Source: a virus. From it: a DNA stretch of 64,000 bases. Where the stretch lies: positions 1 through 64,000 of the IMG/VR virus record IMGVR_UViG_3300044641_010328; one strand, 5' to 3'. Position numbers and translations under genes: made by a program. This document shows positions 13,004 through 56,781 of the stretch, piece by piece; the stretch's first letter is position 1, and each line of letters opens with the position of its first letter. The notes beneath the pieces were generated by a model. The model was given only the letters and a program-made list of their open reading frames with translations, was not told the DNA's origin and did not search any database.

Positions 13004-13340
13004 AATCATCCTCGAGCCTGACGACATCGTCCAGCTCGGGGGTTGAAACCTCTACTAGGACGACTGGGACATCGCGTGCCCCAAATCTATGTATCGTCCC
13101 GGGTGACACGTGGAAAACTTCTCCCCTGTCGAGTACACGATCAGAGAAGCCTCCTGCTCCGTCCGATGTCTCAAGGATCAGCTTGCCTTCAAGCACACGG
13201 ATCGTCTCGGTCTTCACGTTGTGATACTGCCTGCTCAGGCGGCAACCTGGGTTGATATGCAGAAACTTGCCAACGTACCTGTCAGTCTCAGCCCAGATCT
13301 CCTCATAGCCCCAGGGCTTCTTGATCAGACGCACGCTCAT
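12990..13340 (-). CDS. Cupin (mannose-6-phosphate isomerase type II C-terminal-like)
   Basis: KPWG, LSRQYH..KTET, HRF, EVSTPELDDVVRLEDDY. Confidence 0.88.
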   Translation of the reverse strand: MSVRLIKKPWGYEEIWAETDRYVGKFLHINPGCRLSRQYHNVKTETIRVLEGKLILETSDGAGGFSDRVLDRGEVFHVSPGTIHRFGARDVPVVLVEVSTPELDDVVRLEDDYARQ

Positions 13341-13813
13341 GACCGCACCGCCTTGACGAGGTCAGACGAGGACTGAATCTTTCCGCCGCCGACGCCGAAC
13401 ATCACCTTGCAGCCGATCCGCTCGCACAGATCAAACTCAGGGACATTCTCGGCACTGTCGCGGTCACCGCCCTTCGTGAAGTAGACTGGACGAAGGATCT
13501 CGAGCGCGCCGGTCACGAACTGCGTGCCATCATCCCAGAGGACGACGGCGTCGACGCCGGCAACACCTGCGATAATCTCAGCACGCTCCATCTCGGGCAT
13601 GAAGGCAAAGCCCTTCTTCCGATTCAGAAATCCGTCACCGTTGACGATGACGACAAGCGGTAGCTTGTTGTTGTGTGCTAAGGAAGCTGAAGCCTGCAGG
13701 CAGCGAAGGTGTCCGACGTGCATCGGATCAAAGCCACCCGATGTTGTGACGCAGGTTCTGAACTTTGGCATTGCCAGGAGCTCATTTGGATGCGAGTAGA
13801 TTTTTGTGATCAT
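13337..13813 (-). CDS. Cytidylyl/adenylyltransferase (TagD/HldE-like)
   Basis: SGGFDPMHVGH, KGGDR, KIQSSS. Confidence 0.9.
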   Translation of the reverse strand: MITKIYSHPNELLAMPKFRTCVTTSGGFDPMHVGHLRCLQASASLAHNNKLPLVVIVNGDGFLNRKKGFAFMPEMERAEIIAGVAGVDAVVLWDDGTQFVTGALEILRPVYFTKGGDRDSAENVPEFDLCERIGCKVMFGVGGGKIQSSSDLVKAVRS

Positions 13814-25593: not shown

Positions 25594-25612
25594 GTTGTCT
25601 CCTTGTATAAAG

Positions 25613-25667: not shown

Positions 25668-25673
25668 ACATGT

Positions 25674-26048: not shown

Positions 26049-26072
26049 GTTGCCTCCAAGTGTTCCCAAGAT

Positions 26073-26309: not shown

Positions 26310-26369
26310 TTCTCCATTTATTCCTGTTGGATGTGATCATCTTACATAAAGTCGCATCTACTTTACATC

Positions 26370-26579: not shown

Positions 26580-26917
26580 ATAACGATTGGCTCGCCCTTA
26601 TAGGTTACAGTGCGACCACCAACCTTTTCAACCTTAATGTGCTTAACATCTGGCAGCTTCTTGACAAACTTGCAGAGATCGACAAGATTCTTATACAGTG
26701 TGCCGCCCTTTGGGAGGAACTTGATGTAGACATCAAGAACTGTGCCGCCGGCATGCGAACGCTCGACTCGGTCAGACTGGCCAACCGTGGCAACCGTTGG
26801 CAAGCACCTAATCAGAAGCATGGTGTCAGGGACGTGAGCATTCTCAAGCATCTTTATTGACACGTCAACTTTGACGAGCTTGCTGGTTATAGTCTTGTCT
26901 TCATGAAGTGCTTGCAT
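26576..26917 (-). CDS. Hypothetical protein
   Basis: 113 aa ORF preceded by ATACATA. Confidence 0.65.
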   Translation of the reverse strand: MQALHEDKTITSKLVKVDVSIKMLENAHVPDTMLLIRCLPTVATVGQSDRVERSHAGGTVLDVYIKFLPKGGTLYKNLVDLCKFVKKLPDVKHIKVEKVGGRTVTYKGEPIVI

Positions 26918-26922
26918 CTATG

Positions 26923-33422: not shown

Positions 33423-33772
33423 TGTGCCATCACCACGAAGAGTGCGTCATCAAAGATGTTGTCACAGATCCTCGCAATGTCAAGATCAAGCTGCGTAATG
33501 TCTTCAAGAAAGCTTGTGCGTGTCTCAACGATGACCACGTTTGATTCAATCCCGATCTTGATTGCGTGATTTCTAGTGTCAACGTCCTTTAAGACCTCAG
33601 ATACAAAGTACCTCTGTTGACCAGGATCGTTAAATCTGTAGGCTCTTGCAAGTCGCCTCGGATTCTGAAGCTGTGCCCATTCTGATTTATCAATTTTTAC
33701 TGGCAAATCAGGCGCGTCAATAGAGTCTTGAACTGATCCTCTTAGCGACTCATTTAGAAAGTAGAAGCTCAT
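33419..33772 (-). CDS. Pterin-4a-carbinolamine dehydratase (PCD/DCoH)-fold protein
   Basis: W...L.R.Y.F.D....FV..V....NH..I.I...V.V...T...IT.LD..IA..CD. Confidence 0.65.
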   Translation of the reverse strand: MSFYFLNESLRGSVQDSIDAPDLPVKIDKSEWAQLQNPRRLARAYRFNDPGQQRYFVSEVLKDVDTRNHAIKIGIESNVVIVETRTSFLEDITQLDLDIARICDNIFDDALFVVMAQ

Positions 33773-36144
33773 TATGCCTCTGGTTGAGATTCTATCATGT
33801 CATATGCAAACTTGATAATTTCGTTGACATTTTTCTTAGTGGATGTTGCTGCCTTTACCTTCTTTCCCTTAGCATCCAGAGACTTCTTGAATGCCTCTGA
33901 CATCGTCTCAAACTGAGCTTCCATTTCTAGTAAGAAGGCTTCTATGTTTTCATTAATTGCTGTCTCAACCTCGGGAGTTTCCATCTCGTCCTTTCTCGCG
34001 CGAGCTGCCAGGATCTTCTCTCCGACAATGTCGAATATTTCTTCTGGGTTTATAGAGCTAAATTTATCAAACGTGAGCTTCTCGCCTTTTTCAAGCTTAC
34101 CCTGGGAAACAAGCGCCTTCTGAATGACTCCTCCGTACTTGCTTATCACATCAATGGATTCCTCATCGATGTAATTCAGTATCAGACGCTTTATCTGAGA
34201 AGGCGAGAGATCTCTCCTCCTAGCCATGATGTTATACTTTGTAGTGAGCTCAACAGTCCTAATTAGAGCGCGAAGCTGCTCATCAGACTCTTTTGTGAAA
34301 AGATACCTGACAGTTGATATCTCATCAAGCCCTAGCGTCTCGTATCTCTTCTCGTCAGCGCTGGTAAGATCTGGCTTTGTTACAAGGTTGAAGAGCTGTG
34401 CGATGTTAGGGACGACCTCGTTGATATCATCACCTGTGTCAGGGCTAGTGATAAGATTCTGGCAGGCTCTGACAATTAAGGATATCCATTCTTTCATTTC
34501 GACCAAGGACAAAAATTTCTTGTAATCTTCCAGTCCCATTGTCTGGTATGTCTCTTCAAAATCTGCCTCGGGATCATCTTCAACAACTCTCTGGAAAACA
34601 AGTTTCGCAATAGGAGTGAAAGCATTGTTGAAGAAGCTTTCAGCAAGAATCTCAGCAGCAGCGCCTGCGAAAGTCTTCGTCACGATCTCGCCTTCTTCAG
34701 TGCCCTCTATGTCCTCGAGATCTGGATCAAGGATGGAAGGCCTACCTCTTGCCATCAACCCAATCTTCTGATATCTGTCTCGCTCTATGTTCTTGGAGAT
34801 CTGATTGATGGTTTCTTCTTGCTCATCTTTTGACATGCTGTTGAAGTCTGATGTGCTCTTTCCAAGCTTCTTTAGCTGCTTCTCGAATGCCGAAGGATCT
34901 TCGCTTTGCATTGCTTCTGCTTCTGCACGAGAAAACTGACTACCTAGATTAGCCTGAAGGGTCGCTGCTCTCTTCTTCTTGTCTTGAGCCTTCTCAGCAG
35001 CAGCATCGAGCTTTCTCTGCTCCTTTTCACCCCTCGCTGTCAAAGCTGCCAAGGCCTTGTCGTGCATGGCGCGGCGTGCTTTGTCAAATTCTGACCGAAA
35101 CGCTGCTTCGTATTCCTGGTCATTAAATGGGAAATTTCTGAGAATATAGTAAACAGTATCCTCTGTGCGACCACCTGGATATTCAGCTGTGACAGCAATT
35201 GGGCCACCCGTGTGAACAATTGGTATCCTGAGCTCCTTCGCTAGATCCGGTCTTGGCGGGCTTGCGAGATCTGTGAATCTGACTCTCCTAACATGTGTTG
35301 GCTCATCCATGCCATCAAGCTTTGCCATCAATGACTCTATATCAATTCCGATCTTTGCATCTTCAAAATTCTTAGGAAGTCCTAGCCCGGACTTCTCAAA
35401 AACATCAAGAACTCTATTTGCATCTCCTGACACGATGTCTGCCATCTCGATCTTTGACTGATCTCTGATTTGACGCATTGCAATCAGATCAGGTGCCATT
35501 GTCCACTTTTGACGCATCGCTTCAAGCTCATCGATCTCGTGAGACTTCAGCCTCTTCCCGCCGATTGAGACAATTGGTGACGAAGCAGCAGTCGCGCGCG
35601 CTGCTGTTTGTGCAAGCTTCTCTGCTTTTCTTTCGTCGCCCTTCTTCTTCGATCTTGGCTTTTTTGGACCCTCGTATCTATCTTTTGTTGGGCCAGAACG
35701 AAACCCAGTATCGGGCTTCTCATCAGAGTCAGAGTCTTCCTCGTCTCCAGCCGGTATAAGGCTTCTTAGGCTTGCCTCTTTGAGCACAATCGGTCTAAGA
35801 ACTTCCATGAGATCTGTCTCACTCATGCCCTTGTATTGTTCGGGGGCCTTTGATTTGCGCACAAGGTCCTTAATTCGAGAATAGAAGTACTGGACCTTTC
35901 CAGGATCAACCTCCTGTGACATCTGTGCTGCTGCCTGAGAGAGCTGCCGCTTGTTTACCGGTAGAAAGTCAGGATCACCTACGGGAACCTTGTCAGCTGA
36001 TAGCTGAGAAGCCATCTGCGCATCTGGTAGCACAGGCCTATCAGTCCCGGCAATCTGTGTCTGGTCTCTGGTGTGAAAGCTTCTTTCTTCTGCCAGGACT
36101 TTTAGGAGCTGCTCAAGTGCTCGCTTCTTGACTACAACCTGCAT
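33772..36144 (-). CDS. Large hypothetical late protein (probable head protein)
   Basis: 790 aa; MQVVVKKRALEQLLKVLAEE; ATATTTA upstream. Confidence 0.75.
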   Translation of the reverse strand: MQVVVKKRALEQLLKVLAEERSFHTRDQTQIAGTDRPVLPDAQMASQLSADKVPVGDPDFLPVNKRQLSQAAAQMSQEVDPGKVQYFYSRIKDLVRKSKAPEQYKGMSETDLMEVLRPIVLKEASLRSLIPAGDEEDSDSDEKPDTGFRSGPTKDRYEGPKKPRSKKKGDERKAEKLAQTAARATAASSPIVSIGGKRLKSHEIDELEAMRQKWTMAPDLIAMRQIRDQSKIEMADIVSGDANRVLDVFEKSGLGLPKNFEDAKIGIDIESLMAKLDGMDEPTHVRRVRFTDLASPPRPDLAKELRIPIVHTGGPIAVTAEYPGGRTEDTVYYILRNFPFNDQEYEAAFRSEFDKARRAMHDKALAALTARGEKEQRKLDAAAEKAQDKKKRAATLQANLGSQFSRAEAEAMQSEDPSAFEKQLKKLGKSTSDFNSMSKDEQEETINQISKNIERDRYQKIGLMARGRPSILDPDLEDIEGTEEGEIVTKTFAGAAAEILAESFFNNAFTPIAKLVFQRVVEDDPEADFEETYQTMGLEDYKKFLSLVEMKEWISLIVRACQNLITSPDTGDDINEVVPNIAQLFNLVTKPDLTSADEKRYETLGLDEISTVRYLFTKESDEQLRALIRTVELTTKYNIMARRRDLSPSQIKRLILNYIDEESIDVISKYGGVIQKALVSQGKLEKGEKLTFDKFSSINPEEIFDIVGEKILAARARKDEMETPEVETAINENIEAFLLEMEAQFETMSEAFKKSLDAKGKKVKAATSTKKNVNEIIKFAYDMIESQPEA

Positions 36145-36766: not shown

Positions 36767-37315
36767 TTATCCGCCGGCAGTCTTGACTCCTGCGCCTACA
36801 GAGATTGGAACATCGACCATGCGATCCTCTCCCTCAAGTCCAAAATCGTACTGCTGATCAAGGATATCGACCATCTGTTCAACGTAACTCTGCCCATAAT
36901 TTTTCTTCAAAAACTCTGAGGCTCTTGATACAACGACCTCTTCGACCTGCAGAAGCGTTCTTGAATTCATCACAAGTCTTGCAATCTTTTTGGTGAACAT
37001 GTCGATGTCTAGAGGAGGCTTCTCAACCACAGGCTCCTTTGGTGCTTCCTTTGGAGTCTCGCTTCCTGTTGCCGGAGGTGCGCTCTCTTCACCTGCACCC
37101 TCTTCATCCTGCTCAAGGAGGAATCGAAGAGACAGATTGTTGAGAGACTCAAACATCTCTTCTTTTTCTTCTCCCGCATCAATTGATTCCTTCTCGTACC
37201 TGATTATGAGGGCATCTATCTGATCATCAACAGAGTCGGGTGCAGGATCAACCTCCTGCATCATTCCTTCGACTGGTGAGTCAAGATCATCCTGCTCATG
37301 TATGCGACTTCTCAT
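36767..37315 (-). CDS. Acidic hypothetical late protein
   Basis: 182 aa; LRFLLEQ. Confidence 0.7.
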   Translation of the reverse strand: MRSRIHEQDDLDSPVEGMMQEVDPAPDSVDDQIDALIIRYEKESIDAGEEKEEMFESLNNLSLRFLLEQDEEGAGEESAPPATGSETPKEAPKEPVVEKPPLDIDMFTKKIARLVMNSRTLLQVEEVVVSRASEFLKKNYGQSYVEQMVDILDQQYDFGLEGEDRMVDVPISVGAGVKTAGG

Positions 37316-38010
37316 GGTGCTGTCCCCTTGAGAGCAAGTGCGATCTTCTCAGCTCTCTTTATTCTGTCCTCGATGACGCCCCAGTTGAGCTCCTTCATCA
37401 TGGCATAAGTGTATGTCTTAACATCTGAGACATAATCCCTGTAATAGGCGTGTTGCCAGACATCCATGACAATGATGGGAATACAACCAACCGGAACACT
37501 TTGGCTGTGCAGATCGATGAAAGTGTTCATGTAGGTCTGCGTAAAGATGTTGAAATATGTGACTGCCCAACCGCAGCGTGCCGCAAGGCAGCATGCAATA
37601 AAATCAGTCTGCCACTTATCAAAGTCTCCAAAATCACGAGATAGCCTCATGTAGGAGAGCGTGTCCATGGAGATGTTGCTGGTAAGATCGCTGATGTTTG
37701 AGAAGTAAAGCTCGTGTAGGTAGACGCCATTCATGTTGTACGTCTCATCCTGCTTGAGAGATCTGAAAGCAGATCCGTTTGATTTGACATCTCCTCTATC
37801 GACTGTATCAAGCTCTGCGCTTATTCGATTGAAGGCCTCAAGATATCCCAGATATAGACCATTATGTGCCTTTTTTGTGGCAGCGCTCTGGAACTCTGTT
37901 GGCAGATTAAATGTCTTCTGCTGTGCAACCAGCGCCTCGTTGAGATTTTCCCTCTCTCCGAGGTGAAGAGACTCTGCAATAACCTTGCTAATATCTGCGT
38001 TTTTGATCAT
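37312..38010 (-). CDS. sod: Fe/Mn superoxide dismutase with N-terminal extension
   Basis: AH..LY.GY, NGVYLHELYF, DFG.F..W, GWA, MDVWQHAYY.DY. Confidence 0.88.
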   Translation of the reverse strand: MIKNADISKVIAESLHLGERENLNEALVAQQKTFNLPTEFQSAATKKAHNGLYLGYLEAFNRISAELDTVDRGDVKSNGSAFRSLKQDETYNMNGVYLHELYFSNISDLTSNISMDTLSYMRLSRDFGDFDKWQTDFIACCLAARCGWAVTYFNIFTQTYMNTFIDLHSQSVPVGCIPIIVMDVWQHAYYRDYVSDVKTYTYAMMKELNWGVIEDRIKRAEKIALALKGTAP

Positions 38011-39582: not shown

Positions 39583-40139
39583 CAGAAATCCTGTACTCGA
39601 TTGTGGTGATTCCAGCACCTTGGTGCGTATAGCTCAGATCCTCCCACAGCTATCTCCTCTAGGTTTTCAACCTTTCGATCTGTGAAATATGCATCTGCTC
39701 CGCATGTCGTACAAACTGCAGAGCACTTCTCAACGTGTGTTGCCCAGGGTAGTATCTCCTTGATCTCAGGAAATACATTGCACGAGGCAGACATCTCAAT
39801 AGAGGCAACCACGACTGTGAACCCTGTCCTGTACAGAGAGATGAGCGCATCAGCAACGCCATCAATCATGAATGCTTCATCAACTGCAATTACATCGGGT
39901 CGTGTCTCTTGTGCAGTCACAAATCTAAGAATATCCTCGCCATTTGATACATTTATTGCAGGAATCTTTCCGCCGTTGTGCGTGCAGATCTCGCTCTCTG
40001 TGTACCTGTCGTCAAGACGGGGCTTGAATGCGAGAATCTTTAAACCCTTGTACCTAAATCTATCGACAAGCGCGATGAGTCGCGTTGTCTTTGAACCCAT
40101 CATTGGGCCTGTAAAGACATGAAAACTTGGGTTGATCAT
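39582..40139 (-). CDS. tdk: Thymidine kinase
   Basis: GPMMGSKTT, VDEAF, CTTCG, VGGSELY.PRC. Confidence 0.92.
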   Translation of the reverse strand: MINPSFHVFTGPMMGSKTTRLIALVDRFRYKGLKILAFKPRLDDRYTESEICTHNGGKIPAINVSNGEDILRFVTAQETRPDVIAVDEAFMIDGVADALISLYRTGFTVVVASIEMSASCNVFPEIKEILPWATHVEKCSAVCTTCGADAYFTDRKVENLEEIAVGGSELYAPRCWNHHNRVQDF

Positions 40140-41131
40140 TTGAGCTTCCACCATTGAAGAGTCCTCTCTAGTCCATCCCAAAATGTGACCTTAGGTACAT
40201 ATCCAAAGTCACGTTGAGCAGCTCCATAATCACCTAGCGTGTGCATAACGTCTCCTTGTCGCCAGGGAGCATTAACAACCTCAATATTCTTGAACTCACT
40301 CATAAGATGCTCAAGAATCTCCTTGTTTGATGTGCGCTGGCCACAGCAAACATTATACCTCTCACCCGTAAACTTTTTAAGTGAAAACGCTGCAAGCACG
40401 TTTGCATCGACGACGTTGTCAACGTAACAAAGATCTCTAGACTGTGTCCCGTCTCCGTCAGACCTCAAGGGCGTTCCAGCCGATATTGCATTGCACCATG
40501 CTGAAACCGCTGTCGAATAGGGTGAATCACCCATCTGTCCCGGTCCAAATACGTTAAAATACCGCAGAAGGACAACATCGAGATCGTATAGCCTGCTGAA
40601 TAGTGCTGAAAAGTCCTCTAGGCATGACTTCTGTAGTGCATAAGGAGACTTTGGACTCTTTGGTTCAGATTCAGACGTTGGCATGACGTCAGCGCCTCCG
40701 TACACTGAGGAGGAGGATGCAGCAACGACTCTTCGTACGTTTCCGACGCACGCCTTGATTAAGATGACATACTTCATAAGATTTTCATCAGTTGTCTCAA
40801 CTGGGTGCTCAACAGAGTAAGACACGCGTGGGACGGCTGCCTGGTGAAAAACGACGTCATATTTCTTCTGATGGATCCTATCAAGCACAACAGGCGACGC
40901 AAAGTCATCCTCTATCACCCAGACCTGACTCGGATTTCTGCTATCAATCTGTGACTCGTAGATTGACACAAGATTTCCAATGAATGTCTTGACATCAAGT
41001 CCAGAAAAATTATCCAGACTTCCATTCACCATATTGTCAACCACGTCTACTGTGTGCCCATCAGCAACTAGACGCTTTACGAGGTTTGAGCCAATGAATC
41101 CGGCTCCTCCCGTCACTAGAACATTTGCCAT
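40136..41131 (-). CDS. NAD-dependent nucleotide-sugar epimerase/dehydratase (extended SDR)
   Basis: TGGAGFIGS, SSSSVYG, YALQK, LRYFNVFGP. Confidence 0.93.
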   Translation of the reverse strand: MANVLVTGGAGFIGSNLVKRLVADGHTVDVVDNMVNGSLDNFSGLDVKTFIGNLVSIYESQIDSRNPSQVWVIEDDFASPVVLDRIHQKKYDVVFHQAAVPRVSYSVEHPVETTDENLMKYVILIKACVGNVRRVVAASSSSVYGGADVMPTSESEPKSPKSPYALQKSCLEDFSALFSRLYDLDVVLLRYFNVFGPGQMGDSPYSTAVSAWCNAISAGTPLRSDGDGTQSRDLCYVDNVVDANVLAAFSLKKFTGERYNVCCGQRTSNKEILEHLMSEFKNIEVVNAPWRQGDVMHTLGDYGAAQRDFGYVPKVTFWDGLERTLQWWKLK

Positions 41132-41164: not shown

Positions 41165-42037
41165 CTAAGGAACAATGTGTGCACAATTTAGGCACACTTT
41201 GACTCGAATATCTCTAGATTCAAGACCAATCAAATTCTGAGCCTTGAAACCAATGTGAATCAGCGCATCAAGATCTATCTTCAGATTTTTTGGCACGTTG
41301 GTTGATCTGCACACAATGTCAAGGACATCATGCTCTGGTCTATGCATAAATCGAACGTATGATATGCAGCTTGAATTTGCTGTTACAAACCTACGGGATC
41401 CTGCTCCCTGACCCGACTCCATCTCTTTTATGATTCTGTCCATAAGATCATCATTTATCTGCCCGTAATATTCCTCTTCACCTGGCACTGAGAGTGCACC
41501 TGGTCCGAGGTTGTCAGACTGAGATGCAATCACCTCAAACTTCAAATCAAGAGATTCATTTCTCCCTGTGGCAGACAGCGCACTCTCAACATAGTTTGTC
41601 ATCTTTTCTGTGCTTACAAACTCTCTGCTATGAACAATGTCGCGAACCGCCTCGGGATCTGGAATTCCCTTGCATGTAATCACAGAAGGATGGTCTCTCA
41701 GCGCCAGTGATTGTGTGTTGAATGCCTCCCACGTGGTCCGTAGTGAACCAAGGTCGTGCATCTCATCGCCTCTGGCAGCAAACCGCGCTGTAACTGTGCT
41801 CCATTCGGGTGCAAGAAAGACGACAACATTATTCAAATCATCGAGAAACCTGTGAAGCTCGCCGGACTCGTGGCTGTTATCACGGCCAAAGATCTTTGGA
41901 TACACAGCACGACTGATGTGACCCCGATCTCGAATATCATACCTGAAGTTTGTAGACCTGTGAAGTTGTCCGTAGAAAGTTGACTTGCCCGAGAGATCAC
42001 AGCCCTCAAGAACAATCTGCCTTGTTGGTAGCCTCAT
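41165..42037 (-). CDS. dNMP kinase fused to a thymidylate-synthase-like domain
   Basis: N-terminal LEGCDLSGKST...DRGHIS..VY; C-terminal SRR...SCIS..F...CRSTNVPKNLKIDL...CAH. Confidence 0.75.
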   Translation of the reverse strand: MRLPTRQIVLEGCDLSGKSTFYGQLHRSTNFRYDIRDRGHISRAVYPKIFGRDNSHESGELHRFLDDLNNVVVFLAPEWSTVTARFAARGDEMHDLGSLRTTWEAFNTQSLALRDHPSVITCKGIPDPEAVRDIVHSREFVSTEKMTNYVESALSATGRNESLDLKFEVIASQSDNLGPGALSVPGEEEYYGQINDDLMDRIIKEMESGQGAGSRRFVTANSSCISYVRFMHRPEHDVLDIVCRSTNVPKNLKIDLDALIHIGFKAQNLIGLESRDIRVKVCLNCAHIVP

Positions 42038-45000
42038 ACCTGAATCTTCCTCATCTTGTTATTGTTCGTGGAGAATCCCCAGTTCGGATCCTTGCTGACC
42101 TCTGCGATGTAGATCTCGTAGTGGTTAAGTGGCATCTCGCCCCAGATCCGGAGATTGACCGTCTGCATCTCATTATCGCACACCTGTGCCCGAATGAAAC
42201 CTTTACCATTCTTGGTCTTCTTTACATTGAAGTCCTTCACCAGGAACCAGCAGATCCCCTTCTCATTGTCGCCAACCTCAGTGATCGGACCAACCTGTGC
42301 CTTCTTGATCTTGGCGATGATGTCCTCGGGGAACATCAGGTCCTCACGAGAGGTCGAGGTGAGATCGAAGTACATCTTCAGCTTCTCAGATCGAGTCCAA
42401 TCCGGAAGATTCTCGTAGTTCTCAAACAGCTTCCAGAAGGTGACCTCAGGCTGCCGACCTTCCTTGATCAGCTTCTTCATCTCGGTCTTGGTGTATCCGA
42501 ACCGACCGCGCCTGAGGATGTCGTAGTTCTTTTCCTCAGTCAGGGTCGCCAAGAGCTGGCGGTGATTTGTCACCTTGCCGGACTTGAAGTCCTCCAGCGA
42601 TCGAAGCGCCTCGACGCTGCAGAGCGAGGTGAGTGTGGTCTTGTTCACCTTTGAGTGCCTCCAGGCGCCGTCCTCAGTGTACAGCATGGACTCGATCGAG
42701 ATGTAGGGGCGGTTGTCCATGATCTCGGCAACAGCCGTTTCGCCTACTCCCTTGATGGAGGACAGCGGCGGAACGAAGCCCTGCAGTTCGTGGCTGTACA
42801 TCCAGACAAGACCCGAGCTATTGATGTCTGGTGGGTGGATCTTGAATCCCTGCTCCTTGATCTCAGTTGCAACCTTCGCAAGGCCTTCGGGATTAGAGTT
42901 CTCGGACTGGAGGCAGGTGGCAAGCCATTCCTCCTCGTAGTGCTTGTGAAGCCAGGCAGCGTAGTAGGAATCGACAGCATACGATACGGAGTGAGACTTG
43001 TTGAAGCCATATGCAGAGAATGCCTCGATCGTCTCGTAGAGCTCTGTCGCATCCTTGACTGACATGCCGTTCAGGTTCACCGCACCATCAACAAACCGCT
43101 TGCGAAGGTCCTCGCGCTCCTTGGCCTTCTTCTCATTCATGTCCAGAGACTTCTTGACCAGAGTCTTACGCATCTGATCAGATTCACCGGGATTGAAGCC
43201 AGCAAGCTTCTGTGCCAGGAGCATGAACTGCTCCTGGTAGACGACGAATCCGTGTGTCGGCCCGAGGACGTCCTTCAGGATTGGATGCTTATAGGTTGCA
43301 AGCCCCTTGTTCTTGACCTCGACATACTTCTTGTGGACACCGGCAGCGAGTGGACCAGGACGATAGATCGCGGTGATGGCGGACAGGTCCTCGATCGAGG
43401 TGGGCTTCGCCTCGAGGCAGAACTTTCGAGCACCGCTGTTTGTGAACTGGAAGACCTGTGTGAATCGCCCCTCGTGATAGACGTGCTTCCAGACGTCCTG
43501 GTCATCCATCTCGTTGTATCGAATGTTTAGATTCTTGTCGAAGAAGTCCTTGACCTGTGCGAAAGTCGGATCCTTGATGCCATGCCGTGTCTGGAGGACC
43601 ATTCGAATGCAGTCCTCAACCATCTTCAGAAGAGAGAGACCGAGGAAGTCGAACTTGAGGAAGCCGTTCTCCTCGAGATGCCGGAAGTTCATACCTTCAG
43701 ACCAGGGTGTCTGGATCTCACCGCGGACTGAGATGACCGGCATGTGATCCTCAAGCTTTGGGCAGATGAGGACGCCGCCTGCATGCCGGCCAATCGATCG
43801 TGTTTCCATGAAGAGAGACTGGACCTGCTCACAGAGCTCCGGATACTTCTCCATGAAGATCTTGTACTTTTCAGAGTACTTCATGCAGTCAGCGTGAGAC
43901 AGGACGTAGGTGCTCTTTTCCTCGTGGTCACCTAGTGCCCTGTGCATGACATCGTCCTGCAGCGGACCAGTGACCTCGTTCACCTCCTCGAACGGAATAC
44001 CATGGAACTTTGCGATGTCCTTAATCAGGGACTTCAGCTTCAAGGTATTGAAGTTCGAGACCGGAACAACAGAGGCCTCTCCGAATAGCTTGCGTGCCTC
44101 ATCGATTAGAACATCACGATCACCGACGTCAGTGTCGATGTCAGGCCACGCGACCTTGTGGCGACCGAGGAACCGCTCCCACAGGAGGTCGTACTTGATC
44201 GGATCAACCGATGTGATGCCGAGGACGTAGTTGACCAGAGATCCTGCACCCGATCCGCGACCAGGACCGATCAGCGTTCGATGCTGTGCACGGTCGAAGA
44301 CGAAATAGAGAGTGAGGAAGTAGTTCTCGAACTTGAGATACTTGATGTCATCAAGCTCCATCTTCAGTCGTTCGACGTATTCAGGTTTCGTGTGAAGACC
44401 GAGCTCAACAAGACCCTTCTTGCACATGTCAAGGAGCTGGTTGAAGGCAGTCTGCTCGGGCTTGTTAAAGCTCGGAAGCTTTGCAGAGGAATCGAAGGAG
44501 ATCTCCTCACACTTTTCCCAGGCGATGTCATGAGTCCGCTCGATCGACTCCTTGACCAGAAGCTCAGTCCCCTTGTAGAAGTCGTGCTGGTCCTTGTGAG
44601 CAAGGTACTCATCCCACATCTGCTGTGCGTTCTTAGGATACAGCTCGCACTTGAGCTCCTCGAAGGCAGGCAGCGTCTGCTTCTGCATGTCATCAGAGCG
44701 GCCGCCCATACGGCCAAGCTTCTTGTAGAGCTCACGCGCCTGCCAGACGTTCGGGCTGTAGTAGTGAGAATCTGCGGTCGCGATCGTCTTGATGCCGGTG
44801 CGCTTCGACAGGTCAATCAGGTGCTTGTTGGTCGTGTGCTGGATGTCAAGCTTGTTGAACTGGAGCTCGAGGAAGAAGTTGTCGATTCCAACCGCATCGA
44901 CAAATCGATCCGTGTGATTTTGGAGCTCACGCTGGATCTGCTCATGAGGCTTCTTCAGCGCCTCACCGCGAATCGAGGTCGAAGCAAGAAGGCCTCCGAC

Positions 45001-45591
45001 ACATGCAGTCGAGACCACAAGCCCTTCACCATGCTGCTTGAGCATGTTGTAATCGATGCGAGGAAACTTGTAGTAGCCCTCGACGTAGGACCGCTTGACA
45101 AGGTTGAACAGGTTCTTGAGCCCAGTTCGATTCTTGGCAAAGACGACCAGATGATACCGGCGCTTCCATTCATCTGCATCATCAGAGTCAACAGACTTGG
45201 TCTCCTCCTCGTCCTCGACAACAAGGCCTCCGGTCACCTCCTCCTCAGCGAGGATGTCAATCTTCTCAGGCTTGCCTTCCTCGTTCTTTGCGCGTTTTGC
45301 CTCGAAGTGAGCAGCGCGCTTCTTTTCCCAATCAAGAAGAGATGGGACAAAGTAGAACTCGACGCCATAAAGCTGCCGGTACTTACGTCCCTTACCCTTC
45401 ATTTTCCTAGAATAGGTGTGAGCGTGAGCGAGGCCGTTGCCGCTACCGTGGTCAGTCAGCGCCCATGCGTCCATGCCATTATGGAGGACCCAGTCGATGT
45501 GCTTATCAGGATAGCCAAGTCCGTCATTGACGCTGAAACCTGAGTGCGCATGCAAACCGACAAAACGATTCGGTGGTTCGATGATGCTCAT
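42034..45591 (-). CDS. dnaE: DNA polymerase III alpha subunit (DnaE)
   Basis: PHP motifs HAHS, TDHG, DSHY; GPGRGSGAGS, PDIDTD, HAGGV, KFDFLGL, YGFNKSH. Confidence 0.97.
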   Translation of the reverse strand: MSIIEPPNRFVGLHAHSGFSVNDGLGYPDKHIDWVLHNGMDAWALTDHGSGNGLAHAHTYSRKMKGKGRKYRQLYGVEFYFVPSLLDWEKKRAAHFEAKRAKNEEGKPEKIDILAEEEVTGGLVVEDEEETKSVDSDDADEWKRRYHLVVFAKNRTGLKNLFNLVKRSYVEGYYKFPRIDYNMLKQHGEGLVVSTACVGGLLASTSIRGEALKKPHEQIQRELQNHTDRFVDAVGIDNFFLELQFNKLDIQHTTNKHLIDLSKRTGIKTIATADSHYYSPNVWQARELYKKLGRMGGRSDDMQKQTLPAFEELKCELYPKNAQQMWDEYLAHKDQHDFYKGTELLVKESIERTHDIAWEKCEEISFDSSAKLPSFNKPEQTAFNQLLDMCKKGLVELGLHTKPEYVERLKMELDDIKYLKFENYFLTLYFVFDRAQHRTLIGPGRGSGAGSLVNYVLGITSVDPIKYDLLWERFLGRHKVAWPDIDTDVGDRDVLIDEARKLFGEASVVPVSNFNTLKLKSLIKDIAKFHGIPFEEVNEVTGPLQDDVMHRALGDHEEKSTYVLSHADCMKYSEKYKIFMEKYPELCEQVQSLFMETRSIGRHAGGVLICPKLEDHMPVISVRGEIQTPWSEGMNFRHLEENGFLKFDFLGLSLLKMVEDCIRMVLQTRHGIKDPTFAQVKDFFDKNLNIRYNEMDDQDVWKHVYHEGRFTQVFQFTNSGARKFCLEAKPTSIEDLSAITAIYRPGPLAAGVHKKYVEVKNKGLATYKHPILKDVLGPTHGFVVYQEQFMLLAQKLAGFNPGESDQMRKTLVKKSLDMNEKKAKEREDLRKRFVDGAVNLNGMSVKDATELYETIEAFSAYGFNKSHSVSYAVDSYYAAWLHKHYEEEWLATCLQSENSNPEGLAKVATEIKEQGFKIHPPDINSSGLVWMYSHELQGFVPPLSSIKGVGETAVAEIMDNRPYISIESMLYTEDGAWRHSKVNKTTLTSLCSVEALRSLEDFKSGKVTNHRQLLATLTEEKNYDILRRGRFGYTKTEMKKLIKEGRQPEVTFWKLFENYENLPDWTRSEKLKMYFDLTSTSREDLMFPEDIIAKIKKAQVGPITEVGDNEKGICWFLVKDFNVKKTKNGKGFIRAQVCDNEMQTVNLRIWGEMPLNHYEIYIAEVSKDPNWGFSTNNNKMRKIQV

Positions 45592-46871: not shown

Positions 46872-47306
46872 TTATTCGATGTGTCCGTAGTAGGGCTCGA
46901 AGAGGGGCTTCCCTTCTGCAATGGATCGCTGGAGATAGTCGCGCAGATCCTCATAGGAGGTTGTAACCTTAACGCCAGATTGAGCTAGCATCAAATTGAA
47001 GTTGCCTGTGAGACCCTGCGCAAAGTAGACAATTGGAACGCCAGCGTTGTATGCCACACCTGCCTCAAAAATTGTGCCCATGTCCTTATCGCGCGTGTTG
47101 CAGAGAACAAAGTCAGCTGTTCGAATGTGATCAACATTTCCTTTGAATGTGTCCTTCTGAACCTGGAGAGAAGCTGTTGGGGGACAGATAAAGATCTTGC
47201 GCGGCGATGCAACATCAAGACCAAGATCTCCTAGCAAATTTTCCAGAGCCTCGACTTCCTCGAGCGCCTTAGGTGTGAACCAGCCAGATGCGAGATATAC
47301 CTTCAT
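46872..47306 (-). CDS. Nucleoside 2-deoxyribosyltransferase / nucleotide N-glycosidase family
   Basis: VYLASGWF, D.GT.FEAG.A, FNLML. Confidence 0.85.
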   Translation of the reverse strand: MKVYLASGWFTPKALEEVEALENLLGDLGLDVASPRKIFICPPTASLQVQKDTFKGNVDHIRTADFVLCNTRDKDMGTIFEAGVAYNAGVPIVYFAQGLTGNFNLMLAQSGVKVTTSYEDLRDYLQRSIAEGKPLFEPYYGHIE

Positions 47307-47347
47307 TTTGAACCTCACATAAACAATAGTGGCGCACATCGTTGTTT

Positions 47348-53454: not shown

Positions 53455-54405
53455 TTAAAAATCTCTACGAGCCTTGTAATTACTCACAATCTCGTCAATC
53501 TCTCCTAGAATCTCATTCCAGAGCGTCCGGAAGTGTGGGACACCGCCATCTGTTCCGTTCATGTCATCTCGTGTGGCCTGGTAGATCGTGTCATTCGGGT
53601 GGTAGGTGAGGTGCTTCTCGCTGTCCTCGTCAGGCCAGTAGAGGTTGGTACCTGTTCCATTGCGGAATGTCTTGATGTAGTGCCATGCAGGCTCGCGAAG
53701 ATTGATCGCAACATGAGCCTCGGGGAAGACGCGGAGGATCTCACGTGCCATGAGTGCCGCAAGCATGTTATCCTCCTCAGGCTGGATCTGCTTGTCCTGA
53801 CGCTGCTTAATGAACATGAAAGCATCGCGGATGTTCATGCGCATGTAGTAGAACGTCTCGAGGCACTTCGGGAGGATATGACGAGCGTCCATGAGAGAGA
53901 TCTTCTTGGAGTCGACCATGTCAACATAGAGCGCCTTTGCATCCTCTACGTGATTCTTCCAGCGCTCATAGAACTCAGGGCTATTCTGGATCGAGCCTGG
54001 AACTAGGCTGCGCTCGTGAGAGAGCCAGCGATCACCTGTGCACTGCGCCGCAAAAGATCCGGCACGATGACGAATGAGATGAGTTACTGTCTGAGTATCG
54101 ATTCCACCCACAAGGAAGGTGAGACCGATTAGCTCCATTGCTGCAGGAAGGGCACGACCCGCAAAGACGTCCTCCATGGTCTTTGAGAGATCTGCTTCAG
54201 AAGCCTCAGCATAGGGAACATGCTTATCAGCCCACGTGGACTTAACGAAACAATAAACTGCCTGTCGGATCGTCTTTGGATCAGGGCTGTCGACAAGCTC
54301 GAGCTTAAGCGCATCGAGGCTATTTACGAACTTGGTTGTAGGCCGCTCGTCGAAACGAATTGCCATGGGAAGGTTAATGGGCTGTAGATCTAGATTTTGT
54401 GGCAT
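53455..54405 (-). CDS. Divergent ThyX (flavin-dependent thymidylate synthase) paralog
   Basis: THLIRHRAGSFAAQCTGDR (SxRY altered), DARHILP, MN.R....F...R. Confidence 0.8.
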   Translation of the reverse strand: MPQNLDLQPINLPMAIRFDERPTTKFVNSLDALKLELVDSPDPKTIRQAVYCFVKSTWADKHVPYAEASEADLSKTMEDVFAGRALPAAMELIGLTFLVGGIDTQTVTHLIRHRAGSFAAQCTGDRWLSHERSLVPGSIQNSPEFYERWKNHVEDAKALYVDMVDSKKISLMDARHILPKCLETFYYMRMNIRDAFMFIKQRQDKQIQPEEDNMLAALMAREILRVFPEAHVAINLREPAWHYIKTFRNGTGTNLYWPDEDSEKHLTYHPNDTIYQATRDDMNGTDGGVPHFRTLWNEILGEIDEIVSNYKARRDF

Positions 54406-54414
54406 TAATTTCTC

Positions 54415-55332
54415 CTATCGAAGATTATCGATGATTTTGGTCAAGTTTTCAACTAGAATCACGCCTTCTTGCCGCTGGAGTGATTTATTGTAAGGCTGAA
54501 TTGGGCTAAATGTCCGAAGTCCATGAGAGGCAAACTCTGCTGCATGCTTTGGCGAGTCATCTACACAGAAGGCAACGTGTCCTGCAAACTTTGACTGGAT
54601 GATCCAGAGGAACTTCTCTCCGCTGAAGGCTACATCATCAAAGTAGAGACCCGAGCTGTGAAGCCATCGTGCTGTGTCAAAGAGGCAGAGAGGATTGTCT
54701 GCAGGGCGTGCTGTCAGGATCTGGACCCAATACCCAAGTCGCTGTAGCTCATGCGTGAATTCGGCTGCATCACTGACAGCCGGAATGTCGCGAAGCTTGC
54801 GCTCTGCTATGAACTCCTTGAAGAGGCGCTCTGTGTTATGCCCTAGATCTTGAGCAGCTGATGCAGCATAGTACTCTGGACAGTCATACGAAATCACTGC
54901 TCCCTTCGTCTCAGCAAGCCACTCAAAGAACGAGCGTCTGAACTCTGCAAGCACATCATCCATGTCAAGGATTGCTACTGGACGACCATCCCAAGACTTC
55001 TTAGACAGGTTATGCCTGAAGTGAAGGTAAGCATCCTTGTCCTCGAAGGCATCAACAAGCTCTTTCTCATTGATGTCCCAGACATTCATGATTGCCATCA
55101 GATATCTGATCACATCAATGCTCTCATACAAGATCTTTGTCCGGTCTGGCATCTTGCGATCCATTCGGTGATCTTTGAAATTGATTGATGATACAAGATC
55201 TGAGATCTCAGAATGCAATTCAAGAGCAAATGATTTTGTCATCTGCTCTTTCTCTACGTCTGTGAATGTCTTGCTATCGAAGAAAAGATTAGAGAATGCA
55301 CGCTGACGATGCAGCATCTCTTTTAGGGTCAC
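54415..55332 (-). CDS. All-alpha dNTPase domain fused to HAD 5'-nucleotidase
   Basis: LHSEISDL...FKDH...YESIDVIRY; DMDDVL, LTARP, VDDSP. Confidence 0.8.
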   Translation of the reverse strand: MTLKEMLHRQRAFSNLFFDSKTFTDVEKEQMTKSFALELHSEISDLVSSINFKDHRMDRKMPDRTKILYESIDVIRYLMAIMNVWDINEKELVDAFEDKDAYLHFRHNLSKKSWDGRPVAILDMDDVLAEFRRSFFEWLAETKGAVISYDCPEYYAASAAQDLGHNTERLFKEFIAERKLRDIPAVSDAAEFTHELQRLGYWVQILTARPADNPLCLFDTARWLHSSGLYFDDVAFSGEKFLWIIQSKFAGHVAFCVDDSPKHAAEFASHGLRTFSPIQPYNKSLQRQEGVILVENLTKIIDNLR

Positions 55333-56767: not shown

Positions 56768-56781
56768 GTAACCTCCTAATT

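What the first reader, a model, noticed from the sequence alone, without database searches (positions are those of the whole stretch)
41165..42037. NMP kinase fused to a minimal TS fold carrying the dCMP-type Asp
The C-terminal SCIS...RSTNVPKNLKIDL aligns without gaps to TS RSCDVFLGLPFNI. The catalytic-type Cys is kept, and the dUMP-selecting Asn (E. coli N177) is Asp, as in T4 dCMP hydroxymethylase (D179). The domain is short and seems to lack much of the folate-binding region. It may be a dCMP-modifying enzyme with different chemistry, or a cytosine-nucleotide sensor that regulates the kinase. It is translationally coupled to dnaE.
Basis: partly seen in the sequence, partly recalled or inferred. 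Interest (0 to 1): 0.8.

Follow-up and report, generated by a model that had tools for sequence, protein, structure and literature searches.

The report
Nucleotide kinase fused to mini thymidylate-synthase fold
An uncultured large T4-like phage encodes, right after its DNA polymerase gene, one protein that joins a small nucleotide kinase to a stripped-down thymidylate-synthase-type domain built for cytosine nucleotides; it probably makes or handles an altered cytosine building block for phage DNA, by chemistry that is still unknown.

Summary
Window 41165..42037 (-) is a real 290-aa gene. Its start overlaps the dnaE stop by 4 bases (ATGA).

- **Kinase domain (residues 1-140).** This is a YorR/thymidylate-kinase-like P-loop kinase.
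- **TS-like domain (residues 141-290).** This is a 150-residue core of the thymidylate-synthase (TS) fold. VIA Z is 11-12.6, with 140-148 residues aligned to MilA, AfhB and ThyA.
- **Residue mapping.** Profile alignments place C224 on Cys146, R215/R216 on R126/R127, R244-S245 on R166-S167, D255 on N177 (T4 D179) and H287 on H207.
- **Conservation.** These residues and the kinase motifs are invariant in 81 orthologues of about 35% identity.
- **Missing parts.** The folate-binding segments (TS about 37-105 and the C-terminal tail) are absent.
- **Position 247 (TS D169).** It is Asn here, as in flavin-dependent 5-hydroxy-dCMP synthases. In the family it flips among N, D and E at least 8 times, so that signature cannot be transferred.
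- **Context.** The gene follows dnaE in 80 of 80 related contigs, inside a fixed nucleotide-metabolism module.

Best reading (about 0.5): a bifunctional enzyme that makes a modified dCMP and phosphorylates it. Main rival: a cytosine-nucleotide sensor that regulates the kinase.

No described family has this architecture. This scan noted the same family earlier in another genome. The chemistry is untested.

The parts
41165..42037 (-). Whole gene for the 290-aa kinase / mini-TS fusion protein (stop codon at 41165-41167).
   Evidence: ORF. Full-length orthologues: 36 close ones, 191 clusters at 50% identity and 80 IMG/VR loci.
41618..42037 (-). Residues 1-140: YorR/thymidylate-kinase-like P-loop nucleotide kinase domain.
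   Evidence: Profile against PDB hits YorR 2axp/3kb2 at E 4e-8. VIA Z 12.5-12.8 over 136 aligned residues; TMPK and dNK give Z about 11. PHROG 761 'thymidylate kinase' E 2.7e-6.
41981..42007 (-). P-loop, residues 11-19 (EGCDLSGKS), of the TMPK type EGxDxxGK[ST].
   Evidence: E11, D14, G17 and K18 are invariant in 81/81 sequences. Coordinates checked.
41765..41785 (-). LID-like segment R85..D91 (RFAARGD). Together with D37-R38 it forms the kinase catalytic and phosphate-binding set.
   Evidence: R85, R89, D91, D37 and R38 are invariant in 81/81. The segment aligns to the YorR stretch RLRVRGDE.
41168..41617 (-). Residues 141-290: minimal thymidylate-synthase-fold domain (150 aa).
   Evidence: VIA: MilA 5b6e Z 12.6 (146 aligned), AfhB 9iqu Z 12.1 (148), ThyA 3ix6 Z 11.7 (141). 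Foldseek top hit 9iqu, E 2e-5. hhalign against a TS-superfamily set: Prob 96.5, E 7.5e-10.
41390..41395 (-). R215-R216, equivalent to TS R126/R127 (T4 gp42 R123/R124). In TS these arginines bind the nucleotide phosphate across the dimer.
   Evidence: hhalign alignments. R215 is 81/81 and R216 is 80/81. Residue roles from PMC6400193.
41366..41368 (-). C224, equivalent to the catalytic nucleophile Cys146 (E. coli) / Cys148 (T4 gp42).
   Evidence: hhalign. Conserved in 81/81 and 52/53.
41273..41308 (-). R244-S245-T246-N247 ... D255, equivalent to TS R166-S167-C168-D169 ... N177. D255 is the cytosine-type Asp. N247 sits at the position that marks 5-hydroxy-dCMP synthases.
   Evidence: Gap-free register. 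R244, S245 and D255 are 81/81. Position 247 is N 37 / D 30 / E 14, with at least 8 changes on the tree.
41177..41179 (-). H287, equivalent to TS H207. The protein ends 3 residues later, so the TS C-terminal about 55 residues are absent.
   Evidence: hhalign. H287 is 81/81. VIA alignments end at ThyA residue about 210 / L. casei 262.
42034..42037 (-). ATGA overlap of the dnaE stop codon and the fusion gene's start codon.
   Evidence: Sequence read.
42034..45591 (-). DnaE-type DNA polymerase III alpha gene, directly upstream.
   Evidence: ORF. Annotated phage DnaE hits at 27-31% identity. Found upstream of the fusion gene in 80/80 related loci.
40136..41131 (-). NDP-sugar 4-epimerase/dehydratase-like gene, 33 nt downstream.
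   Evidence: Pfam Epimerase E 5e-47. NCBIfam TviC/GalE-like. Present downstream in 57/80 loci.

Best explanation
The gene encodes a bifunctional enzyme of phage deoxypyrimidine metabolism.

The C-terminal mini-TS domain binds a cytosine mononucleotide, most likely dCMP. R215/R216, R244 and S245 would hold the phosphate. D255 would read and protonate N3 of the cytosine. C224 would attack C6, which activates C5 as in TS, T4 dCMP hydroxymethylase and the 5-hydroxy-dCMP synthases. A group is then added at C5, or removed.

The usual folate pocket is deleted, so the donor or cofactor is not the classical one and remains unknown. A flavin with O2, as in AfhB / RB69 gp48, is the leading single candidate.

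The fused YorR/TMPK-like kinase would then phosphorylate the product to the diphosphate. This would feed a non-canonical dCTP analogue to the DnaE replicase encoded immediately upstream.

Shown here: the fold, the residue equivalences, the conservation and the synteny. Inferred: substrate, catalysis, product, channelling between the two domains, and incorporation into DNA.
For: - **Fold.** The AF2 model is very confident across both domains (pLDDT 96.9, pTM 0.92). The C-domain aligns almost completely with TS-superfamily structures. Cytosine-specific members rank first: MilA Z 12.6, AfhB Z 12.1 and 11.9, and Foldseek top hits 9iqu/9iqc.
- **Residue mapping.** hhalign maps the Cys nucleophile, the RR pair, R-S, Asp-for-Asn177 and His207 consistently onto ThyA, T4 gp42 and RB69 gp48. 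Probabilities are higher for the dCMP-type phage enzymes (T4 93.7%, hydroxylases 91.8%) than for ThyA (61%).
- **Conservation.** In 81 orthologues with median 35% identity, C224, D255, R215, R244, S245 and H287 are invariant, as are the kinase residues E11, D14, G17, K18, D37, R38, R85, R89 and D91. The two domains carry equal numbers of positions conserved at 95% or more, 17 and 16.
- **Residue roles.** Cys148 as nucleophile, Asp179 for cytosine recognition and N3 protonation, and R123/R124 for phosphate binding are experimentally established in T4 dCH (PMC6400193).
- **Precedent for gene pairing.** 5-hydroxy-dCMP synthase gene clusters carry a YorR/TMPK-like 'nucleotide kinase' close to the TS homologue in DLP3, RB69 and RL38J1 (PMC13326640; RB69 and PhT2 annotation).
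- **Context.** The gene lies in a fixed nucleotide-metabolism and replication module in 80/80 loci. Five large relatives, one of them 100% complete, have no canonical PF00303 enzyme above the cut-off.
Against: - The domain lacks TS residues about 37-105 (E58, W80, W83, Y94 and their T4 equivalents Y56, E60, I81, W82, S94, Y96) and the whole C-terminal tail. No known cofactor site is retained. It is also about 70-85 residues shorter than the validated hydroxylases, which are 217-238 aa.
- Position 247 varies among N, D and E in orthologues. The acidic residue at the L143 position is absent in this protein (N221, S222). The published hydroxylase signature is therefore only partly present.
- No DNA glycosyltransferase was found in the 91-kb record. 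GT1/GT2 genes occur in only 3 of 5 large relatives and lie more than 100 kb from the gene.
- In the complete relative the fusion is the only TMPK-like kinase, so the kinase might simply serve dTMP.
- No biochemical data exist.
Confidence: 0.5

Rival explanations
1. Sensor or specificity-module reading. The mini-TS domain no longer catalyses anything. It binds a cytosine nucleotide (dCMP or dCTP) and regulates or directs the fused kinase allosterically. The kinase would be the phage's general dTMP/dNMP kinase, and the arrangement would balance pyrimidine pools for the DnaE replicase.
For: - The cofactor-binding parts of TS are deleted.
- The fusion is the only TMPK-like kinase in a 100%-complete 284-kb relative.
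- The surrounding genes (thymidine kinase, dCMP deaminase, two ThyX) form an ordinary dTTP-supply set.
- Phosphate-binding arginines and the base-reading Asp are what a binding domain would also keep.
Against: - The nucleophile Cys is invariant (81/81 and 52/53). Pseudo-enzymes usually lose it.
- H287 and S245 are equally invariant.
- The C-domain is as constrained as the kinase domain.
- No precedent is known to me for a TS fold used as an allosteric sensor.
Confidence: 0.25
2. Specific version of the best reading. The C-domain is a flavin/O2-dependent dCMP 5-hydroxylase (a 5-hydroxy-dCMP synthase like HY126 AfhB, RB69 gp48 and DLP3 gp80). The kinase makes 5-hydroxy-dCDP. The 5-hydroxycytosine in DNA is later glycosylated using NDP-sugars from the adjacent epimerase.
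For: - N247 and D255 reproduce the D169N plus N177D signature that predicted nine of nine tested 5-hydroxy-dCMP synthases (PMC13326640).
- AfhB is the top Foldseek hit.
- The protein ends right after the S/C-A-H motif, much as RB69 gp48 does.
- An NDP-sugar epimerase lies directly downstream in 57/80 loci, and an RfaE-like sugar-1-phosphate nucleotidyltransferase lies at 13337..13813.
- A superoxide-dismutase-like gene sits in the same module in 60/80 loci. This is at most weakly suggestive of oxygen chemistry and is inference only.
Against: - Position 247 is N in 37, D in 30 and E in 14 of 81 orthologues and changes at least 8 times on the tree.
- The domain is about 70-85 residues shorter than the validated enzymes.
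- The L143E/D feature is absent in this protein.
- VIA Z-scores for AfhB, MilA and ThyA are tied within about 1.5.
- Glycosyltransferases do not co-occur consistently.
Confidence: 0.15
3. Cofactor-free Cys chemistry. The open mini-TS site uses only the Cys-C6 adduct. Possible reactions are coupling of dCMP with a small aldehyde, removal of a C5 hydroxymethyl group, C5-H exchange or dehalogenation, or adduct-promoted deamination. The kinase then traps the product.
For: - The nucleophile, the base-protonating Asp and the phosphate site are kept, while every cofactor wall is lost.
- Analogous cofactor-free reactions of Cys-activated cytosine are known for DNA C5-methyltransferases. TS itself catalyses H-exchange and dehalogenation. 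Both points are from my own knowledge and were not checked in the paper library.
Against: - No direct evidence.
- A zinc dCMP deaminase is already encoded in the module in 66/80 loci, which makes a second deaminase unnecessary.
- No source of a small electrophile is evident.
Confidence: 0.07
4. Decaying remnant. An ordinary thymidylate kinase carries a degenerate, functionless relic of a TS gene that once followed it.
For: The domain is truncated and undetected by Pfam and NCBIfam.
Against: - The 150-residue domain is modelled at pLDDT above 95.
- It is retained full-length in all 80 loci with no split forms.
- It has 16 positions conserved at 95% or more, including all nucleotide-site residues.
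Confidence: 0.03

Closest known systems
Flavin/O2-dependent 5-hydroxy-dCMP synthases of the TS superfamily (phage HY126 AfhB, PDB 9iqu/9iqc; RB69 gp48; DLP3 gp80)
   Same: - TS fold: top Foldseek hit, VIA Z 11.9-12.1 with 147-148 residues aligned.
- Catalytic Cys, the R-S pair and Asp at the N177 position.
- Asn at the D169 position in this protein.
- A chain that ends shortly after the A-H motif.
- Association with a YorR/TMPK-like kinase, which is a neighbouring gene there and fused here.
   Different: - This domain is only 150 aa, against 217-238 aa.
- It lacks the helical layer before the RR motif.
- The D169-position residue is not fixed in the family (N/D/E).
- There is no acidic L143 equivalent in this protein.
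- There is no arabinose or glycosyl-transfer cluster beside it.
- Flavin binding is untested.
T4 dCMP hydroxymethylase gp42 (and MilA CMP hydroxymethylase, PDB 5b6e/5jnh)
   Same: - Best single-sequence profile match: Prob 93.7%, E 2e-7.
- The GQ..SRR motif, Cys148, R168-S169, D179 and the I-R-D turn (R233).
- MilA is the best VIA match, Z 12.6.
   Different: - All folate/THF contacts described for T4 dCH (Y56, E60, I81, W82, V85, S94, Y96, Y218, R220; PMC6400193) fall in segments that are missing here.
- D171 is Asn here.
- It is fused to a kinase.
Thymidylate synthase ThyA (PF00303)
   Same: - Core beta-sheet and helix architecture: Z 11-11.7 with 140-142 residues aligned.
- Cys146, R126/R127, R166, S167 and H207 equivalents.
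   Different: - N177 is Asp (cytosine type) and D169 is Asn.
- About 110 residues of ThyA are absent: roughly 37-105, an 11-residue loop before the Cys, and 211-264.
- There is no PF00303 hit, even at E up to 1.
SPbeta prophage YorR (PDB 2axp/3kb2) and thymidylate kinases (TMPK)
   Same: - P-loop of the form EGxDxxGK[ST], a DR motif and an R..RGD LID segment.
- Profile E 4e-8 to YorR, VIA Z 12.5-12.8; TMPK Z about 11.
   Different: - Compact at about 140 aa, and below the Pfam PF02223 threshold.
- Its substrate is unknown. YorR itself has no established function.
- Here it is covalently joined to a TS-fold domain.
T4 gp1 deoxynucleotide monophosphate kinase (functional analogue only)
   Same: The proposed role is the same: phosphorylating a phage-made modified dCMP, and possibly dTMP, so that host kinases can complete the triphosphate (paradigm summarised in PMC13326640).
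   Different: No homology to gp1 was tested or claimed. Gp1 is a stand-alone protein.

Membership tests
Thymidylate synthase / dCMP hydroxymethylase superfamily (fold level) | TS alpha/beta core fold. | tested here: met
   VIA Z 11-12.6 with 140-148 of 150 residues aligned to MilA, AfhB and ThyA. Foldseek prob 1.00. hhalign Prob 96.5 against a TS-superfamily set.
Thymidylate synthase / dCMP hydroxymethylase superfamily (fold level) | Catalytic Cys nucleophile (E. coli C146). | tested here: met
   C224 aligns to C146, C148 and the RB69 Cys. Invariant in 81/81.
Thymidylate synthase / dCMP hydroxymethylase superfamily (fold level) | Phosphate-binding set: R126/R127, R166, S167. | tested here: met
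   S214-R215-R216 and R244-S245 align and are invariant.
Thymidylate synthase / dCMP hydroxymethylase superfamily (fold level) | Obligate homodimer, with R126'/R127' donated across the interface. | not testable with these tools
Pfam PF00303 Thymidylat_synt (sequence family) | Score above the gathering cut-off of 24.3 bits. | tested here: not met
   No hit for this protein at E up to 1. A homologue fragment, P0157, reaches only 16.6 bits.
Folate-dependent TS / dCMP hydroxymethylase (ThyA, T4 gp42) | Folate-binding elements: E58, W80/W83, Y94, D169 and the C-terminal tail (T4: Y56, E60, I81, W82, S94, Y96, D171, Y218, R220). | tested here: not met
   Alignments place the helix before the RR motif directly after the N-terminal strand. 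The chain ends 3 residues after H287. D169 is N247. Residue roles come from PMC6400193.
Cytosine-specific branch (T4 gp42, MilA, 5-hydroxy-dCMP synthases) | Asp at the N177 position. | tested here: met
   D255 aligns to N177 / D179. Invariant in 81/81 and 53/53.
5-hydroxy-dCMP synthase (AfhB / RB69 gp48 type) | Asn at the D169 position, the diagnostic residue of Lee et al. 2026. | tested here: inconclusive
   N247 is present in this protein. Among orthologues the position is N 37 / D 30 / E 14, with at least 8 changes on the tree.
5-hydroxy-dCMP synthase (AfhB / RB69 gp48 type) | Acidic residue at the L143 position. | tested here: not met
   This protein has N221 and S222 before S223-C224. Many orthologues have D/E at -2 or -3 from the Cys.
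5-hydroxy-dCMP synthase (AfhB / RB69 gp48 type) | Bound flavin and O2-dependent hydroxylation. | not testable with these tools
   This needs purified protein. No residue-level flavin-site description was available in the paper library.
5-hydroxy-dCMP synthase (AfhB / RB69 gp48 type) | Neighbouring NDP-sugar synthesis genes and DNA glycosyltransferase genes. | tested here: inconclusive
   An epimerase lies directly downstream and an RfaE-like nucleotidyltransferase elsewhere in the window. No GT1 was found in the 91-kb record. GTs occur in 3 of 5 large relatives, far from the gene.
P-loop NMP/dNMP kinase (TMPK / YorR-like) | Walker A P-loop, DR motif, LID arginines and the kinase fold. | tested here: met
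   The motifs are invariant in 81/81. YorR profile E 4e-8. Z 12.8 to YorR and about 11 to TMPK.
Pfam PF02223 Thymidylate_kin (sequence family) | Score above the gathering cut-off of 27 bits. | tested here: not met
   No hit in the record at E up to 10. Orthologues in relatives give only 7-10 bits.

The most novel reading that the evidence does not exclude
This lineage of uncultured 200-284 kb T4-like phages replaces or decorates cytosine with a modification made by a new, minimal class of TS-fold enzyme. That enzyme has lost the folate pocket. It obtains its C5 substituent from a different source: a flavin, a small aldehyde, or a partner protein such as the divergent second ThyX that co-occurs in 5 of 5 large genomes. 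The product is handed directly to a fused kinase. This would be a previously undescribed route to a modified dCTP.
Probability: 0.25. Interest if true: 0.85.

Novelty: new variant of a known kind. Interest (0 to 1): 0.62.

Why it matters
Nearly all known pyrimidine hypermodifications of phage DNA start with a TS-superfamily enzyme acting on a mononucleotide, followed by a dedicated kinase. Here the two steps are joined in one polypeptide, and the TS part is cut down to about 150 residues. It keeps the nucleotide site, the nucleophile and the cytosine-reading Asp, and it loses every known cofactor wall.

If the domain is active, it would define the smallest catalytic TS core and a new way to deliver the C5 substituent. 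It would also flag a widespread group of uncultured large phages as likely carriers of modified cytosine: 191 sequence clusters at 50% identity and at least 141 IMG/VR stretches. That bears on restriction and CRISPR evasion, on how such genomes behave in sequencing, and on enzymes for making modified DNA.

If it is instead a sensor, it would be the first TS fold recruited as a regulatory nucleotide-binding module.

Either way, the protein is small, is modelled with high confidence, and can be tested directly with existing assays.

Tried and rejected
**Sequence-family searches**
- Pfam, NCBIfam and PF00303/PF02223 scans gave nothing significant for the protein.
- I set aside the QueF hit (E 0.21) and the phmmer hits to the splicing factor AAR2 (E 0.3-0.5) as chance.

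**Ideas tested and dropped**
- I first mapped E187/Y190/Y191 to TS E58/W61/F62 and dropped it. hhalign and topology place helix 188-207 on the TS helix that directly precedes the RR motif. E187 is therefore a family-specific invariant of unknown role.
- I considered using D169N to file the protein as a 5-hydroxy-dCMP synthase and rejected it at family level. The position flips among N, D and E at least 8 times in syntenic orthologues.
- Stand-alone mini-TS proteins are not established. Candidates of 141-260 aa sit on very short contigs or begin inside the kinase domain, so they look like fragments or miscalled starts. ESM Atlas clusters of 144-183 aa are leads only.

**Searches for relatives elsewhere**
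- No full-length relative exists in 50,697 deposited phage records, in BFVD as a two-domain model, or in GTDB species genomes.
- The more divergent TMPK-type subgroup (P0143, P0145, P0163) could not be placed in any new genomic context. Scans returned only the same lineage.

**Co-occurrence and kinase comparison**
- Glycosyltransferase co-occurrence was checked and is inconsistent.
- hhalign of the family against the RB69 ORF045c kinase aligned only the P-loop. Specific orthology of the kinase domains is therefore not shown.

Full report
**1. The observation**

The minus-strand ORF 41165..42037 encodes 290 aa. Its ATG overlaps the TGA of the upstream 1185-aa DnaE gene in the sequence gtATGAgg, and a GAGGAAG run lies about 10 nt upstream. 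An NDP-sugar epimerase-like gene starts 33 nt after its stop codon.

The gene is real and conserved:
- 36 close homologues of 50-84% identity, all about 290 aa.
- 191 representative clusters at 50% identity, E up to 1e-3, mostly about 300 aa and covering both halves.
- 141 relative-encoding stretches in IMG/VR, of which 80 loci were fetched.

**2. Anatomy**

No Pfam or NCBIfam family reaches significance. PHROG 761 'thymidylate kinase' matches residues 37-106 at E 2.7e-6.

AlphaFold2 on a 53-sequence alignment gives pLDDT 96.9 and pTM 0.92, with 289 of 290 residues at pLDDT 90 or above.

*N-terminal domain, residues 1-140.*
- A family profile hits SPbeta YorR (2axp/3kb2) at E 4e-8.
- VIA gives Z 12.5-12.8 with 136 residues aligned. 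Thymidylate kinases and deoxynucleoside kinases give Z about 11.
- The P-loop has the TMPK form EGxDxxGK[ST].
- D37-R38 and the R85..R89-G90-D91 LID segment align with YorR.

*C-terminal domain, residues 141-290.*
- Foldseek's best PDB hits are the phage HY126 dCMP hydroxylase AfhB (9iqu/9iqc, E 2e-5 and 5e-5). Dozens of thymidylate synthases follow.
- VIA gives MilA 5b6e Z 12.6 (146 aligned, rmsd 3.2), AfhB 9iqu Z 12.1 (148 aligned), ThyA 3ix6 Z 11.7 (141 aligned) and T4 dCH Z 9.4.
- Essentially the whole 150-residue domain is TS core.

**3. Residue equivalences**

hhalign of the family against real sequences fetched from annotated records gives one consistent register. The sequences were E. 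coli ThyA, T4 gp42 and RB69 gp48.

| This protein | E. coli ThyA | T4 gp42 / RB69 gp48 |
|---|---|---|
| S214-R215-R216 | S125-R126-R127 | T4 R123/R124 |
| C224 | C146 | T4 C148 |
| R244-S245-T246-N247 | R166-S167-C168-D169 | T4 R-S-N-D; RB69 R-S-Q-N |
| D255 | N177 | T4 D179 |
| A286-H287 | T206-H207 | - |

With the 81-sequence C-domain profile the probabilities are T4 gp42 93.7% (E 2e-7), the three hydroxylases 91.8% (E 7e-7), ThyA 61%, and a five-member TS-superfamily alignment 96.5% (E 7.5e-10).

What is missing:
- An 11-16 residue loop between the RR pair and the Cys.
- The whole region between the first beta-strand and the helix that precedes RR. This is TS about 37-105, which holds E58, W80, W83 and Y94. 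The T4 equivalents are Y56, E60, I81, W82, V85, S94 and Y96, all shown to bind THF or catalytic waters in PMC6400193.
- Everything after H207+3, because the protein ends at P290.

The classical folate pocket therefore cannot exist in this domain.

**4. Conservation**

I extracted 80 orthologues from the IMG/VR loci and aligned them with the window protein. Median pairwise identity is 35% and the minimum is 26%.
- Invariant in 81/81, kinase domain: E11, D14, G17, K18, D37, R38, R85, R89, D91.
- Invariant in 81/81, TS-like domain: E187, Y190, R215, C224, R244, S245, D255, H287.
- After dereplication to 60 sequences, the N- and C-domains have 17 and 16 positions conserved at 95% or more. Their median identities are 38% and 32%.

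Both halves are under comparable purifying selection, and no split or truncated orthologue was seen.

Position 247 is the exception. It is N in 37 sequences, D in 30 and E in 14, and it changes at least 8 times on a maximum-likelihood tree.

**5. Link to recent literature**

Lee et al. (NAR 2026, PMC13326640) report several relevant points:
- RB69 gp48, DLP3 gp80 and other phage TS homologues convert dCMP to 5-hydroxy-dCMP using a loosely bound flavin and O2.
- N177D together with D169N is their signature. D169N predicted nine of nine tested enzymes.
- A crystal structure of the HY126 enzyme shows the flavin.
- The same clusters hold a YorR/TMPK-like 'nucleotide kinase' one or two genes away from the TS homologue. 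I confirmed this layout in RB69 and in Acinetobacter phage PhT2.

The window protein has N247 and D255 and ends just after the A-H motif, as RB69 gp48 nearly does. The hydroxylase reading is therefore attractive, and the fusion resembles a 'Rosetta stone' of that gene pair.

Three facts hold me back:
- Position 247 is unstable among syntenic orthologues.
- The domain is 70-85 residues shorter than any validated hydroxylase.
- This protein lacks the acidic L143-position residue.

hhalign of the family against the RB69 ORF045c kinase aligned only the P-loop. The kinases share a class, but specific orthology is not demonstrated.

**6. Genomic setting**

The record is a 90,978-bp IMG/VR virus fragment with an estimated completeness of 27%. 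It carries T4-type baseplate, gp15-like and gp32-like genes. It also carries GroEL, Hsp20, a sigma-70 factor, GreA, ClpP, ribonucleotide reductase and DnaB. The nearest cultured DnaE is 31% identical at most. Related contigs reach 284 kb. The lineage is therefore one of uncultured large T4-like phages.

In all 80 related loci the gene lies downstream of dnaE in a fixed order:

[Fpg - MazG/HAD nucleotidase - divergent ThyX - nucleoside deoxyribosyltransferase] - DnaE - fusion - epimerase - thymidine kinase - DHH phosphoesterase - dCMP deaminase - SOD-like - two unknowns

| Neighbour | Loci out of 80 |
|---|---|
| Thymidine kinase | 71 |
| dCMP deaminase | 66 |
| SOD-like | 60 |
| Epimerase | 57 |
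| DHH phosphoesterase | 52 |

The gap between dnaE and the fusion gene is 60 nt or less in 27 of 75 loci. Elsewhere other DNA is inserted.

This synteny shows that the gene is a core gene of the lineage. Because the loci are related by descent, the synteny is weak evidence for functional coupling.

Whole-record searches of five large relatives, one of them 100% complete, gave these results:
- No PF00303 enzyme above the cut-off.
- The fusion is the only TMPK-like hit in four of the five.
- Two ThyX paralogues, one canonical and one long and divergent, in all five.
- GT1/GT2 glycosyltransferase clusters in only three of the five, more than 100 kb from the gene.

**7. Interpretation**

The combination points to covalent catalysis on a cytosine mononucleotide, followed by phosphorylation. 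The combination is an intact nucleotide site, an invariant nucleophile, an invariant cytosine-type Asp and an intact kinase. This follows the T4 logic of gp42 followed by gp1 and the RB69 logic of gp48 followed by a dNMP kinase.

The donor of the C5 substituent is unknown because the usual pocket is gone. The confident fixed packing of the two domains (pTM 0.92) leaves open that the kinase domain closes the cofactor side.

The main rival is a non-catalytic cytosine-nucleotide sensor on what may be the phage's only dTMP/dNMP kinase. The ordinary dTTP-supply neighbours fit that reading. The invariant Cys argues against it.

Narrower versions (flavin hydroxylase, cofactor-free Cys chemistry) and a decayed-remnant reading are scored separately in the rivals.

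**8. Novelty and verdict**

- No curated family, solved structure, BFVD model or deposited phage genome shows this two-domain architecture.
- The paper searches found no description of a kinase/TS-fold fusion.
- The scan's own notes show the same family in another genome, with a follow-up that reached the same closest-known family (e1-5789957). My results agree with that note. They add the N/D/E instability at position 247, the 80/80 synteny, the whole-genome inventory and the explicit map of missing segments.

I class it as a new variant of a known kind: a TS-superfamily member with a new minimal core and a new fusion. The function is inferred and the chemistry is open.

Noticed in passing
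window 53455-54405 (-), compared with 57819-58451 (-): There are two ThyX paralogues. The 210-aa copy has the canonical motif (KHR..S..ESARY). The 316-aa copy has N- and C-terminal extensions and an altered motif (RHRAGSFAAQCTGDR, with the Ser-x-Arg-Tyr part changed). Both types occur in 5 of 5 large related genomes, and the divergent one lies near the fusion gene.
   Followed up: partly
window 54415-55332 (-): A 305-aa fusion of a MazG-like NTP pyrophosphohydrolase (residues 1-109, PHROG 173) with a HAD 5'-deoxyribonucleotidase (NT5C). It could strip a canonical dNTP down to the nucleoside.
   Followed up: partly
window 40136-41131 (-) and 13337-13813 (-): There are two NDP-sugar genes in a phage. 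One is a GalE/TviC-like 4-epimerase directly after the fusion gene, present in 57/80 loci. The other is an RfaE-domain-II-like sugar-1-phosphate nucleotidyltransferase, which also matches Pfam FAD_syn weakly. No glycosyltransferase was found in the 91-kb record.
   Followed up: partly
window 37312-38010 (-): An Fe/Mn superoxide-dismutase-like protein (C-terminal domain E 1.7e-15, weak N-terminal domain) is conserved inside the nucleotide module in 60/80 related loci.
   Followed up: no
window 55964-57204 (-): An Fpg/Nei-type glycosylase and a short HhH-GPD glycosylase sit side by side, next to the pyrimidine genes. This amounts to phage-encoded base-excision repair.
   Followed up: no
window 46872-47339 (-): A nucleoside 2-deoxyribosyltransferase / DNPH1-family protein lies upstream of dnaE in 40/80 loci. 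This is the family of MilB, the nucleotide hydrolase of the mildiomycin pathway that also contains the TS homologue MilA (the MilB link is from my own knowledge).
   Followed up: no
window 58656-59672 (-): A truncated glutamine-synthetase-like protein (338 aa, with both GS domains matched only in part) lies between ClpP and ThyX.
   Followed up: no
window 23603-28527 (-): The phage carries GroEL (534 aa), Hsp20, a full sigma-70-type factor and GreA. This is an unusually cell-like set for a phage.
   Followed up: no
window 33772-36144, 15017-17530, 17533-19881 (-): Three large ORFs (790, 837 and 782 aa) have no Pfam or PHROG match. The 790-aa ORF is conserved downstream of the module in at least 35/80 loci.
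   Followed up: no
related loci L006, L016, L030 and others: In about a third of related loci, 1-8 kb of extra DNA lies between dnaE and the fusion gene. I did not examine what it encodes.
   Followed up: no
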